Below, piece by piece: positions 5,020-6,265 of a DNA stretch of 33,990 nt. The translations under genes and the position numbers were made by a program. Under the pieces are notes generated by a model. The model saw only the letters and a program-made list of their open reading frames with translations, did no database searches and had not been told where the DNA came from. Source of the stretch: a virus; the UHGV virus genome UHGV-0171993; one strand, 5' to 3'. How positions within the stretch are numbered: position 1 is the stretch's first letter; every line of letters begins with the position of its first letter.

Positions 5020-5359
5020 TATGTATGAGGTTTTAGACCGCTGGGGGGCATGGGCTGCAGCAGAAAATAGTGGTGTCGATTGGCAACCGATAGCAGCGGG
5101 CTTCAAGGGGCTTTTACCACGCGGTAAAAAGTCACGTCTCCAGTGTGATGATGATGAGGGGCTCATGATCGATGGGTGCGTAGCTAGATTAAGAAAGTAC
5201 AAACCAGAAGAGTATGAGTTAGTTATAGCCCATTTTGTGGTAGGGATTTCATTGCGAGCCATTGCTAAGAAGAGAAAGTGTTCGGATGGGACTATCAGGA
5301 AAGAGTTGCAAACATCGCTTGGTTTCATTGAAGGCATTGTTTGCACTCTTGCCTGTTAA
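5009..5359 (+). CDS. Q: Late gene antiterminator Q (phage antitermination Q family, not lambda-Q type)
   Basis: About 116-aa protein directly after rusA (classic position); LDRWGAWAA...AAGFKG...RLQCDDDEGLMIDGC pattern resembles the small Q family of lambdoid prophages (from memory); RBS AGAGG 8 nt upstream of ATG 5009. Confidence 0.6.
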   Translation: MGRDMYEVLDRWGAWAAAENSGVDWQPIAAGFKGLLPRGKKSRLQCDDDEGLMIDGCVARLRKYKPEEYELVIAHFVVGISLRAIAKKRKCSDGTIRKELQTSLGFIEGIVCTLAC

Positions 5360-5380
5360 CTATTCTTAACTGTCTTCTAG

Positions 5381-6265
5381 TTATATTGGGCGCTTTGAAT
5401 TCGATTTAAAGCGTCTTCCACTTATTCCAGAAACCCAAATGTCTTCCTCAAGAAAGTCAAGAAGGGCTTTTATTTCTTTTTTTGATGAAGGCATGACAAT
5501 TTTCTCAACGCCGCCAACTATTATGGTTTGTAAGGGGAATTTAACTTTAGCAGCTTCGGATTTAAACTTTGACATATTTGGGGGTGTTAGCATCCCAGTC
5601 TGATTTATTAGTGTTACTTTATTTCTTATCACTGTATCTGCAACGGATTTTAGATCAAAACCTTGGGGAGTAGAAAATACACTAAGTTGACTAAATGCAT
5701 TAAGTTCTTGGTCAGTAGCAGCAGAAAAATAGGACGACATGTCAAAAATGCTTCTTAGATTAAAGAAACTCTTAAATCGTATTGTATCATTGATAATTAT
5801 TGCAACTAGTTTATCATCAACATTAAAACCGATGCTATTAGCTTTACTAAAGGTAGTTTTGCTTGCAAAAAGCTTTCCAAAGAATGATTTTGAGGTATCT
5901 AAGATTTGTTTTTTGTTGAAAGTTTGTAGTGCAATAATATTGGGGTTTGCTGGCGCGTCAACACCAACAAATAATGCTTTAATATAACCAATATCAATTT
6001 GGCTAGGATCCCAGATAGGCACGGCGGTAGGCCTATTGACTGCGTCAATCAGGCGTGCAGAATCAGTAAAGTTTTGTATTTCAAAACACTCACTATGTTT
6101 TGGTGTATAACCGGCATAGAATGGTATCATATTGTTATGATGACTTTCAAAATATTGACGCTGTTGTTGGAAAATGGCCGTAACAGAAGTACTTGCTGTT
6201 GCATCAAGTTCGACTCTAACAATTCTCGTTGCAATTGTATTATCTATTACTGCAAAAAGTGCCAT
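5381..6265 (-). CDS. Hypothetical 294-aa soluble protein, second gene of a low-GC two-gene cargo operon
   Basis: Minus-strand ORF with AAGGA RBS about 9 nt upstream; starts 5 nt after the stop of the upstream membrane-protein gene; visibly AT-rich; no motif I recognise. Confidence 0.6.
   Translation of the reverse strand: MALFAVIDNTIATRIVRVELDATASTSVTAIFQQQRQYFESHHNNMIPFYAGYTPKHSECFEIQNFTDSARLIDAVNRPTAVPIWDPSQIDIGYIKALFVGVDAPANPNIIALQTFNKKQILDTSKSFFGKLFASKTTFSKANSIGFNVDDKLVAIIINDTIRFKSFFNLRSIFDMSSYFSAATDQELNAFSQLSVFSTPQGFDLKSVADTVIRNKVTLINQTGMLTPPNMSKFKSEAAKVKFPLQTIIVGGVEKIVMPSSKKEIKALLDFLEEDIWVSGISGRRFKSNSKRPI

What the first reader, a model, noticed from the sequence alone, without database searches (positions are those of the whole stretch)
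5340..5400. Q and the cargo operon converge with only 21 bp between their stop codons and no terminator between them
The Q stop (5357-5359) and the minus-strand gene stop (5381-5383) are separated by 21 bp with no hairpin/T-run between them. Early rightward transcription through Q during induction would therefore read antisense into the cargo operon, and cargo transcripts would read antisense into Q. This is a built-in transcriptional-interference arrangement that could couple cargo expression to the lysogenic or lytic state.
Basis: inference. Interest (0 to 1): 0.5.

Follow-up and report, generated by a model that had tools for sequence, protein, structure and literature searches.

The report
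Antiterminator Q meets antisense Kiwa cassette
The 21-bp gap is the tail-to-tail joint between a prophage's late-gene switch (Q) and a backwards-facing Kiwa anti-phage cassette in a recurrent cargo slot; it has no standard terminator, as reported, but the cassette's clearest link to prophage induction is a conserved SOS (LexA) operator at its promoter.

Summary
Q (PF06530, 5000-5359, +) and kwaB (5381-6265, -) stop 21 bp apart, with no canonical intrinsic terminator on either strand. The flanks are structured, but no hairpin has a U-tract.

The cargo is a Kiwa defence operon (kwaA-kwaB). It lies antisense between Q and a conserved element I read as the late promoter/terminator pR'-tR' (6890-6975). 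In relatives with an empty slot, Q stops 15 nt before that promoter.

The layout is general. All 40 phage contigs carrying this Kiwa clade have Q convergent on kwaB, with gaps of 13-28 bp. Sixteen of 19 junction variants lack a terminator. Every cargo type found in this slot (16 types, several of them known defence systems) is essentially antisense.

Read-through in both directions is therefore likely. Leftward kwaAB RNA enters an extremely C-rich, G-poor stretch, so Rho probably limits it. Whether the overlap regulates anything is untested. One lineage carries a proper terminator in the gap, so read-through is not obligatory.

A high-scoring LexA box (6804-6823) overlaps the predicted kwaA promoter in all 23 variants and in unrelated genomic contexts. 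This is a more direct link to induction, and I found no report of it.

The parts
3212..3235 (+). Strong intrinsic terminator upstream of the DUF968-rusA-Q block
   Evidence: 10-bp stem GAAAACCCGC..GCGGGTTTTT followed by a T-run. It implies that rightward transcripts reaching Q are antiterminated (inference).
4645..5019 (+). rusA (Holliday junction resolvase), overlapping the start of Q
   Evidence: Pfam PF05866, E 2e-15.
4940..5340 (-). C-rich, G-poor untranslated RNA downstream of kwaB (antisense to Q and the rusA 3' end): predicted Rho loading/termination zone
   Evidence: C-G of +11 to +23 per 80 nt and C/G of 1.8-3.9; the 99th percentile of all windows is +17. The long antisense ORF here is not conserved as open.
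5000..5359 (+). Late-gene antiterminator Q (Q21/QuuD family); the likely start is the ATG at 5009
   Evidence: PF06530, E 2.9e-45. Distant match to solved phage 21 Q (6P18/6JNX), E 0.002. RefSeq relatives are annotated 'antiterminator Q family protein'.
5293..5358 (.). Imperfect inverted repeat/hairpin across the last 21 codons of Q (arms 5293-5314 and 5338-5358)
   Evidence: The arms are unchanged while the loop varies against L008. However, the hairpin is kept in only about 10 of 15 variants, covariation is not significant, and there is no U-tract.
5360..5380 (.). The 21-bp gap between the convergent stop codons; no canonical terminator
   Evidence: Identical in 16+ phage contigs and in E. 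coli genomes.
5381..6265 (-). kwaB (Kiwa effector, DUF4868)
   Evidence: PADLOC KwaB, E 1.4e-149, full length; Pfam PF16162.
5389..5415 (+). 12-bp hairpin in the last codons of kwaB, stronger on the + strand RNA (2 G.U pairs become C.A mismatches on the - strand)
   Evidence: dG -12 kcal/mol. Kept in six junction groups and absent from the others. The tail UUCCACUU is not a U-tract.
6271..6792 (-). kwaA (Kiwa membrane sensor)
   Evidence: PADLOC KwaA, E 1.9e-83, full length.
6804..6823 (.). LexA (SOS) box TACTGTTTATGCATACAGCA overlapping the predicted kwaA promoter and transcription start
   Evidence: It is the only CTGT-N8-ACAG in 34 kb. PWM score 22.9 bits; known boxes have a median of 21.9. 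Present at 10-13 nt from the ATG in 23 of 23 upstream variants, and also in P4-satellite and island Kiwa loci.
6823..6851 (-). Predicted kwaA promoter: -10 TAAAGT (6823-6828) and -35 TAGATA (6846-6851)
   Evidence: A TAnnnT hexamer and a TGGATA-like block are conserved at fixed spacing in the alignment. Sequence-based inference only.
6890..6975 (+). Candidate late promoter pR' with Q-loading region and terminator tR': -35 TTAACG (6890-6895), invariant ACGCGTACGC, -10 TATCGT (6914-6919), invariant GTTAAGAGTGGTTAC (6920-6934), hairpin plus T-run (6956-6975)
   Evidence: Alignment A1. Found in 3710 of 5426 E. coli genomes. Lies just upstream of essD in DLP12 and of holins elsewhere. Directly follows Q in empty-slot phages. 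Twenty different hairpin sequences occur at the same position, and 35 of 52 variants are canonical terminators.

Best explanation
The interval is the 3'-3' junction between the late-gene antiterminator gene Q and a Kiwa (kwaA-kwaB) anti-phage cassette. The cassette sits backwards in a recurrent cargo slot, the roughly 15-nt spacer that normally separates Q from its own late promoter pR'.

Shown:
- Gene identities and exact coordinates.
- No canonical intrinsic terminator at the junction.
- The same tight tail-to-tail layout in every phage copy of this Kiwa clade.
- Antisense orientation of essentially all cargo in this slot.
- A conserved promoter-plus-terminator element just past the cargo.
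- A conserved LexA box on the kwaA promoter.

Inferred:
- kwaAB is transcribed leftward from its own LexA-controlled promoter, away from the lysis genes.
- Lacking an intrinsic terminator, its RNA runs antisense into Q for roughly 100-400 nt, until Rho terminates it in an unusually C-rich, G-poor untranslated stretch.
- During lytic growth, antiterminated early transcripts that have crossed Q continue antisense through the AT-rich cassette as far as tR'.
- Q-modified late transcription starts downstream of the cassette and never crosses it.

Convergent overlap is thus a by-product of how cargo is packed into this slot. It may dampen both units, but it is not demonstrably a designed switch. The cassette's link to the SOS/induction state is more likely made by LexA.
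For: Identities. Coordinates and lack of a terminator.

Module recurrence: the same Q-kwaB-kwaA-pR' module occurs in P27-type prophages of E. coli, and this Kiwa variant is in 33 of 5426 complete genomes. All 40 phage contigs with KwaB at 47-99% identity have Q convergent on kwaB, with gaps of 13-28 bp. An Enterobacter MAG shows the same layout.

Slot survey: 75 loci fall into 17 interval types. One type is empty, with Q stop 15 nt from the -35. The other 16 are cargo types of 0.65-3 kb at GC 0.31-0.43, with ORFs on the minus strand apart from one + ORF in L129. The cargo includes PD-Lambda-5, PDC-S42, PDC-M53A, a TIR-like plus caspase-like pair, and an MBL-fold protein. DLP12 nmpC is a further instance.

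pR'-tR'. Rho signature. Upstream terminator implying antitermination. LexA box.
Against: There are no transcript data, so promoters, 3' ends, Rho dependence and LexA binding are all predictions. pR' is assigned from position and conservation only; its Q-binding and pause elements are not identified, and this Q is only distantly related to phage 21 Q. The immunity region and any N-like factor lie outside the window. The region around the gap is significantly structured (z = -5.3), so non-canonical termination or RNA processing cannot be excluded. The near-universal absence of a terminator in Kiwa junctions (16 of 19) could itself reflect selection for read-through, which this 'by-product' reading plays down. 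The survey loci were chosen by similarity to this Q and KwaB, so the counts are not unbiased.
Confidence: 0.6

Rival explanations
1. Designed interference switch. The terminator-less convergence is selected so that early rightward transcription silences Kiwa during lytic growth, and/or kwaAB transcription silences leaky Q in the lysogen. Cargo expression is thereby coupled to the lysogeny/lysis decision.
For: Sixteen of 19 Q-kwaB junction variants lack any canonical terminator despite KwaB diverging to below 60% identity. Cargo in the slot is strongly biased to antisense orientation. In phi80, antisense taiEcA is reduced when Q is expressed (PMC11364771). Lambda itself uses an antisense promoter inside Q (paQ) to delay late genes (own knowledge).
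Against: The L043-L048 lineage has a textbook hairpin plus T-run in its 28-bp gap. About half of the other cargo types have junction terminators or GC hairpins, and so do DLP12 and RM10466. Read-through is therefore dispensable for the layout. Antisense orientation is equally explained by keeping a constitutive or SOS promoter pointed away from the lysis genes. Rho is predicted to cut leftward read-through short. No expression data exist.
Confidence: 0.2
2. Cryptic insulation. The hairpins that flank the gap (the inverted repeat at the end of Q, 5293-5358, and the kwaB-end hairpin, 5389-5415) act as non-canonical terminators, pause sites or 3'-end stabilisers, so the two units are in practice separated.
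For: The + strand fold has z = -5.3 and the - strand z = -3.2. The arms of the Q-end repeat carry no substitutions while its loop does, against a copy with 75% KwaB identity. The kwaB-end stem is kept through G.U to A-U changes in six junction groups, and its wobble pairs favour the + strand RNA. In L008, L023 and L041 the Q-end hairpin is followed a few nt later by a U-rich run.
Against: No U-tract directly follows either hairpin in the window. RNAalifold finds no consensus structure over 15 variants. The named Q-end helix is paired in only 72% of cells, and its covariation score is reached by 86 of 500 shuffles. Both hairpins lie in coding sequence, so conservation may be protein-driven, and on the - strand the kwaB-end hairpin would be melted by ribosomes. 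N-type antiterminated polymerases would ignore them.
Confidence: 0.12

Closest known systems
E. coli K-12 DLP12 prophage: quuD - (IS5) nmpC - essD
   Same: A Q of the same Pfam family is followed by an antisense cargo gene (porin nmpC), then the same conserved pR'-like element (83.5% identity over 79 bp), then the lysis genes.
   Different: nmpC brings its own hairpin plus T-run facing quuD (GGGGCG..CGCCCC). The cargo is a porin, not a defence system, and no LexA box is present.
phi80 taiEcA 'noncontiguous operon' (PMC11364771)
   Same: A prophage defence gene faces against Q-related phage transcription. It is expressed in the lysogen and goes down when Q-driven transcription is on.
   Different: taiEcA lies inside the Q-dependent late operon, downstream of pR'. 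Here the cassette lies upstream of pR', so only early read-through, not Q-modified transcription, can collide with it.
Canonical Q-dependent cassette (Q gene, pR', Q-binding element, sigma-dependent pause, terminator) of phage 21 (10.1101/651190; PMC6606751)
   Same: Same Q family. Relatives with an empty slot have pR' immediately after Q. A terminator follows within about 50 nt of the predicted start.
   Different: A 1.5-kb antisense cassette separates Q from pR'. The 21Q binding repeats (TGAGCA x2) are not present, and the invariant ACGCGTACGC is only a candidate binding site.
Lambda paQ / antisense control of Q (own knowledge; Hoopes and McClure 1985, Kobiler et al. 2005)
   Same: Antisense transcription across Q can lower Q and delay late genes.
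   Different: paQ is a CII-activated promoter inside Q that makes a short RNA. Here the antisense RNA would be the untranslated 3' extension of a defence operon mRNA.
P2/P4 prophage and satellite defence hotspots (PMC9122126)
   Same: Conserved phage flanks bracket a highly variable, low-GC set of defence cassettes. A related Kiwa sits in a P4-type element.
   Different: This is a different phage family and slot (Q to pR'). Antisense orientation with tight 3'-3' junctions is near-universal here.
Stx-phage Q-pR'-stx arrangement (own knowledge)
   Same: Cargo is placed next to Q and the late promoter of lambdoid prophages.
   Different: stx lies downstream of pR' in sense orientation and depends on Q. 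This cargo lies upstream of pR' in antisense orientation and is independent of Q.

Membership tests
Q21/QuuD-family Q antitermination cassette | Q protein of Pfam PF06530 | tested here: met
   E 2.9e-45, covering 112 of 118 profile positions. Phage 21 Q structures matched at E 0.002.
Q21/QuuD-family Q antitermination cassette | Late promoter pR' immediately downstream of Q | tested here: not met
   In the window, 1.5 kb of antisense cargo separates the Q stop (5359) from the candidate -35 (6890). In the empty-slot relatives L107/L109/L110 the distance is 15 nt.
Q21/QuuD-family Q antitermination cassette | Q-binding element and sigma-dependent pause element at pR' | tested here: inconclusive
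   An invariant ACGCGTACGC between -35 and -10 and an invariant GTTAAGAGTGGTTAC after -10 are conserved. They do not match the 21Q TGAGCA repeats, and no binding data exist.
Q21/QuuD-family Q antitermination cassette | Intrinsic terminator shortly downstream of pR' | tested here: met
   GCTCG-ACAG-CGAGT plus TTTTTT at 6956-6975. There are 20 different hairpin sequences at the same place in relatives.
Kiwa defence system | KwaA membrane protein plus KwaB (DUF4868) encoded as an adjacent pair, kwaA first | tested here: met
   PADLOC KwaA E 1.9e-83 and KwaB E 1.4e-149, both full length. Pfam KwaB above its cut-off. The genes are 5 nt apart.
Kiwa defence system | Protection against phage | not testable with these tools
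   Function is known only for other Kiwa operons (PMC11785009).
Bidirectional intrinsic terminator between convergent genes | GC-rich hairpin flanked by an A-run and a T-run in the intergenic gap | tested here: not met
   None found in 5360-5380 or within -75..+60. The sister lineage L043-48 does have one.
Rho-dependent terminator | Untranslated C-rich, G-poor RNA of about 80 nt or more downstream of the stop codon | tested here: met
   Met for - strand RNA only: C-G of +11 to +23 per 80 nt over 5340 to 4940. The + strand RNA through the cassette has G equal to or above C.
Rho-dependent terminator | Termination abolished by Rho inhibition | not testable with these tools
   Needs bicyclomycin or rho-mutant Term-seq.
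LexA (SOS) regulon operator | 20-bp palindromic box with CTGT-N8-ACAG resembling TACTGTATATATATACAGTA | tested here: met
   6804-6823 scores 22.9 bits on a PWM built from 22 E. coli boxes recalled from the literature. It is the only exact CTGT-N8-ACAG in the window.
LexA (SOS) regulon operator | Box overlaps the promoter or start site and is conserved in orthologous promoters | tested here: met
   The box abuts the conserved TAnnnT hexamer. It is present in 23 of 23 kwaA upstream variants and in three other genomic contexts. It is absent from the other cargo types.
LexA (SOS) regulon operator | LexA binding and damage-inducible transcription | not testable with these tools
   No paper in the library links Kiwa or DUF4868 with LexA.
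Convergent-transcription interference / noncontiguous operon | Two active promoters whose transcripts overlap in antisense | not testable with these tools
   The kwaA promoter is only predicted, and the early promoter lies outside the window. Only the absence of a terminator between the units was shown.
Prophage defence hotspot | Conserved flanks with interchangeable cargo that includes known defence systems | tested here: met
   Seventeen interval types between Q and the pR' motif. They include Kiwa, PD-Lambda-5, PDC-S42, PDC-M53A, TIR-like plus caspase-like, and MBL-fold hits.

The most novel reading that the evidence does not exclude
The junction is part of an SOS-wired timer. DNA damage removes LexA from the kwaA promoter at about the time the prophage repressor is inactivated. 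A burst of terminator-less kwaAB transcription is then driven head-on into Q, delaying or thresholding Q accumulation and hence lysis. As early phage transcription builds up, it shuts Kiwa off so the defence does not act on the prophage's own replicating DNA. A defence cassette would thus be built into the lysis-timing circuit of a lambdoid phage, and Kiwa would be a previously unrecognised member of the LexA regulon.
Probability: 0.12. Interest if true: 0.7.

Novelty: new member of a known kind. Interest (0 to 1): 0.4.

Why it matters
As a bare observation, two convergent genes without a terminator is ordinary. The follow-up adds three things.

1. It defines a cargo slot in Q21/QuuD-type lambdoid prophages, between Q and its late promoter. 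Defence cassettes are stored there almost always backwards and packed tightly against Q. This gives a simple rule for finding new defence genes and for predicting how they are insulated from lytic transcription.

2. It places a candidate late promoter/terminator element, found in about two thirds of complete E. coli genomes, at a defined position.

3. It predicts that enterobacterial Kiwa operons are LexA-repressed. That would tie a widespread membrane-sensing defence system to the DNA-damage response and to prophage induction.

All three are directly testable with standard lysogen genetics and strand-specific RNA mapping.

Tried and rejected
- Known RNA families: an Rfam search of 4900-9000 at E <= 1 found nothing at the junction or at the pR' element. 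The only hits were two tRNAs and far-below-threshold miRNA-like matches that merely reflect the long hairpin.
- Conserved structure at the end of Q: RNAalifold gave no consensus structure over 15 junction variants, and counting on the named helix showed no significant covariation. I do not claim a functional RNA element.
- Overlapping antisense gene: the 185-aa antisense ORF 4789-5346, which starts just past kwaB, is not kept open. The commonest relatives have 3 stops in that frame.
- Target-site duplication: GTTAAC occurs at both cassette borders (5355-5360 and 6888-6893). A 6-mer match is expected by chance at about 0.2, and it is absent from other variants, so I dropped it.
- Q tail as foreign DNA: I first thought the last 7 codons of Q came in with the cassette. 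Tails in all variants, including the empty slot, are short, hydrophobic and variable, so this is probably just the fast-evolving end of Q.
- LexA box as a property of the slot: rejected. No other cargo type has one at its promoter.
- The genome-contig scan gave only 2 loci, but these were useful as a diverged copy and a non-phage copy.
- Literature searches for a described Q-to-pR' hotspot found nothing specific.
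Full report
OBSERVATION. The + strand ORF 5000..5359 ends with TAA at 5357-5359. The - strand ORF 5381..6265 ends with TAA (TTA on +) at 5381-5383. The 21 bp between them read ctattcttaactgtcttctag. The consensus scan finds no terminator-like site in or beside the gap on either strand. My re-implementation of the same criteria over -75..+60 also finds none.

The neighbourhood is nevertheless structured. The + strand RNA 5296-5430 folds at -42.8 kcal/mol, z = -5.3, with 0 of 200 shuffles as stable. The - strand gives z = -3.2. The structure comes from three elements:
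- an imperfect inverted repeat across the end of Q (5293-5314 / 5338-5358);
- a weak AU hairpin in the gap;
- a 12-bp hairpin in the last codons of the minus-strand gene (5389-5415).
None is followed by a U-tract.

WHAT THE GENES ARE. The + gene is a Q antiterminator: Pfam PF06530, E 2.9e-45. It matches the solved phage 21 Q protein distantly, E 0.002. It is preceded by DUF968 and RusA genes, as in many lambdoid prophages. The two minus-strand genes are a complete Kiwa defence operon: KwaA E 1.9e-83 and KwaB E 1.4e-149 against PADLOC, both full length. Their GC content is 31-37%, against about 50% in the flanks. The rest of the window is a lambda-like prophage, with hok/mok-like and Doc-like modules to the left. 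To the right lie a small ORF, a DNA methyltransferase, two tRNAs, a holin and a lambda-like morphogenesis block.

WHERE THE LATE PROMOTER IS. The Q-kwaB-kwaA block plus about 180 bp beyond kwaA moves as one module. It occurs in a different, P27-terminase type prophage in E. coli H1827/12, PEC131 and MIN6, where a holin follows directly. The far end of the module is an element of about 80 bp (window 6890-6975). This element is found in 3710 of 5426 complete E. coli genomes. It lies just upstream of essD in DLP12 and of holins elsewhere.

Alignment of the element shows these features:
- a -35-like TTAACG;
- an invariant ACGCGTACGC;
- a -10 hexamer conserved only as TAnnnT;
- an invariant GTTAAGAGTGGTTAC;
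- a hairpin plus T-run whose sequence differs between lineages.

There are 20 different hairpins at the same position, and 35 of 52 variants pass strict terminator criteria. In three phage contigs with no cargo (L107, L109, L110), Q stops 15 nt before the -35. That is the textbook arrangement of Q followed by pR', a pause element and a terminator (10.1101/651190). For phage 21 the Q-binding element is a pair of direct repeats between -35 and -10 (PMC6606751), and the invariant ACGCGTACGC sits in that position. I therefore read 6890-6975 as pR'-tR'. This rests on position and conservation, not on transcript data.

THE LAYOUT IS GENERAL. A scan of viral contigs with KwaB returned 40 loci with KwaB at 47-99% identity. 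Every one has a Q (80-98% identical) convergent immediately after kwaB. There are 19 distinct junction sequences. Gaps are 13-28 bp, apart from one locus with a disrupted kwaB. An Enterobacter MAG with 75%-identical KwaB shows the same layout with a 15-bp gap, whereas a Leclercia chromosome carries the operon without Q.

A second scan with Q returned 80 loci, of which 75 contain the pR' motif. The interval between Q and the motif falls into 17 types. One is the empty slot. The other 16 are cargo types of 0.65-3 kb at GC 0.31-0.43, and their ORFs are on the minus strand except for one + ORF in L129. In E. coli, FWSEC0002 carries a sense-oriented CPBP gene in the slot, so the bias is strong but not absolute. 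In 12 of 15 types the first antisense stop codon lies 7-48 nt from the Q stop.

The cargo includes PD-Lambda-5, PDC-S42, PDC-M53A, a TIR-like plus caspase-like pair and an MBL-fold protein. The remainder are unknown. DLP12's nmpC is another occupant. The 21-bp junction is thus one instance of a defence/cargo hotspot between Q and pR' that stores cargo backwards.

IS THERE A TERMINATOR IN RELATIVES? Among the 19 Kiwa junctions, only the L043-48 lineage has a textbook terminator in its gap: AAATGGCCGC-ATCG-GCGGCCATTT followed by TTTAT. Two others have marginal sites and 16 have none on either strand. Other cargo types split roughly evenly between junctions with and without a terminator or GC hairpin. 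A missing terminator is therefore common and tolerated, while a terminator in one Kiwa lineage shows that read-through is not required.

The hairpin at the end of Q is unchanged in its arms while its loop varies against the 75% copy. The kwaB-end hairpin is kept in six junction groups and lost in the others. I treat both as lineage-specific and unproven.

WHAT HAPPENS TO READ-THROUGH (INFERRED). Leftward, RNA continuing past kwaB is untranslated, because the long antisense ORF there is not conserved. It is also exceptionally C-rich and G-poor: C-G is +11 to +23 per 80 nt from 5340 to 4940, against a window-wide 99th percentile of +17. This is the classical Rho-loading signature, and Rho is known to suppress antisense transcription (established knowledge). 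No canonical minus-strand terminator occurs for more than 1 kb. I therefore expect kwaAB RNA to overlap about 100-400 nt of Q before Rho ends it.

Rightward, RNA leaving Q enters AT-rich sequence with G equal to or above C and only one weak terminator-like site, at 5581-5596. The next good terminator is tR'. A strong intrinsic terminator at 3212-3235 lies upstream of DUF968-rusA-Q. By analogy with lambda N or HK022 put, early transcripts that reach Q are probably antitermination-modified and would ignore a junction terminator anyway. Q-modified late transcription begins beyond the cassette and never crosses it.

AN UNEXPECTED CONTROL ELEMENT. I aligned the 170 nt upstream of kwaA from 23 distinct variants. 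This revealed an invariant CTGT-N8-ACAG directly after a conserved TAnnnT hexamer, 10-13 nt before the start codon. In the window it is TACTGTTTATGCATACAGCA (6804-6823), the only exact CTGT-N8-ACAG in 34 kb.

I scored it on a weight matrix built from 22 E. coli LexA boxes that I recalled from the literature. It scores 22.9 bits, against a median of 21.9 for the known boxes. All 23 variants score 20.9-27.7. The box is also present upstream of more distant Kiwa operons in a P4-type satellite and next to subAB, at 21.8 and 21.2 bits, and in the Leclercia chromosomal copy. It is absent from the other cargo types in the slot. It therefore belongs to Kiwa, not to the slot.

Its position over the predicted -10 and start site is that of a repressing operator. 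The Kiwa paper does not mention LexA or SOS. No paper in the library pairs Kiwa or DUF4868 with LexA. Binding and inducibility remain to be shown.

Mutual antisense read-through is a fair prediction, and there is an experimental precedent. In phi80 the antisense defence gene taiEcA, which lies inside the Q-controlled operon, is reduced when Q is expressed (PMC11364771). Lambda's paQ likewise shows that antisense RNA across Q can matter (own knowledge).

However, nothing here shows selection for interference:
- A sister lineage and many sister cassettes have terminators.
- Rho should limit the leftward overlap.
- The antisense orientation has a simpler rationale: it keeps the cargo promoter pointing away from the lysis genes and keeps cargo out of both phage transcription programmes.
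- The LexA operator offers a more direct link between cargo expression and induction.

I rate the architectural explanation at 0.6, the designed-switch reading at 0.2 and cryptic insulation by the flanking hairpins at 0.12.

NOVELTY AND SCORE. Convergent genes without a terminator, antisense morons and prophage defence hotspots are all known kinds, and this junction is a new member. The Q-to-pR' antisense slot and the LexA box on Kiwa appear not to have been described in the searchable literature. They raise the interest above that of the bare observation. Interest is 0.4.

Noticed in passing
window 6804-6823: A high-scoring LexA (SOS) box overlaps the predicted kwaA promoter. It is conserved in all 23 Kiwa upstream variants examined and in P4-satellite, subAB-island and Leclercia chromosomal Kiwa loci. 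No paper in the library links Kiwa with LexA.
   Followed up: yes
window 7456-7475: A second LexA-like box, TACTGTAAAAATATCCAGTT (24.4 bits), lies in codons 3-9 of the DNA methyltransferase gene. It is conserved in every homologue found while the codons just before it vary. One lineage changes it to TACTGTAAAAATAAACAGTG, which still fits the consensus but alters the protein.
   Followed up: partly
window 6890-6975: A conserved element of about 80 bp (promoter-like hexamers, invariant ACGCGTACGC and GTTAAGAGTGGTTAC, then a variable hairpin plus T-run) is present in 3710 of 5426 complete E. coli genomes. It is the candidate pR'-tR' of QuuD-type Q proteins and would give a transcript of about 50 nt. 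It has no Rfam family.
   Followed up: yes
L050-L129 (interval between the Q stop and the pR' motif): The Q-to-pR' spacer is a cargo hotspot with 16 cargo types, all essentially antisense and low in GC. They include PD-Lambda-5, PDC-S42, PDC-M53A and a TIR-like plus caspase-like pair. Several types have no PADLOC hit (for example the 427-aa protein of L065, the 388-aa protein of L084, and the L075, L112, L121 and L128 pairs) and could be unrecognised defence genes.
   Followed up: partly
window 5389-5415: The 12-bp hairpin in the last codons of kwaB has two G.U pairs on the + strand RNA that become C.A mismatches on the kwaB mRNA strand. Relatives change G.U to A-U. The structure therefore favours the RNA that is antisense to kwaB.
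   Followed up: partly
window 2090-3235: A hok/mok-like ORF (2090-2302), a small ORF (2515-2694) and a Doc-like toxin gene (2704-3198) are followed by a strong + strand terminator (3212-3235). These moron-like toxin modules sit in the nin-type region upstream of Q.
   Followed up: no
window 7100-7301 and 8663-8816: A 65-aa ORF (phrog_331; annotated in some genomes as a TrmB-family regulator) ends inside a good terminator (7284-7301) downstream of pR'. tRNA-Thr(TGT) and tRNA-Gly(TCC) follow the methyltransferase, as in Stx-type phages.
   Followed up: no
window 4789-5346 (minus strand): A 185-aa ORF antisense to Q and rusA starts 35 nt past the kwaB stop. It is not conserved as open in relatives and is probably a by-product of the strong G>C skew of the sense strand.
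   Followed up: yes
L010-L049 versus the window: Across the Q-Kiwa modules, KwaB diverges to 47% identity and KwaA to 68%, while the adjacent Q stays at 80-98%. Either the defence genes evolve much faster, or Kiwa variants are repeatedly swapped into the same slot.
   Followed up: no
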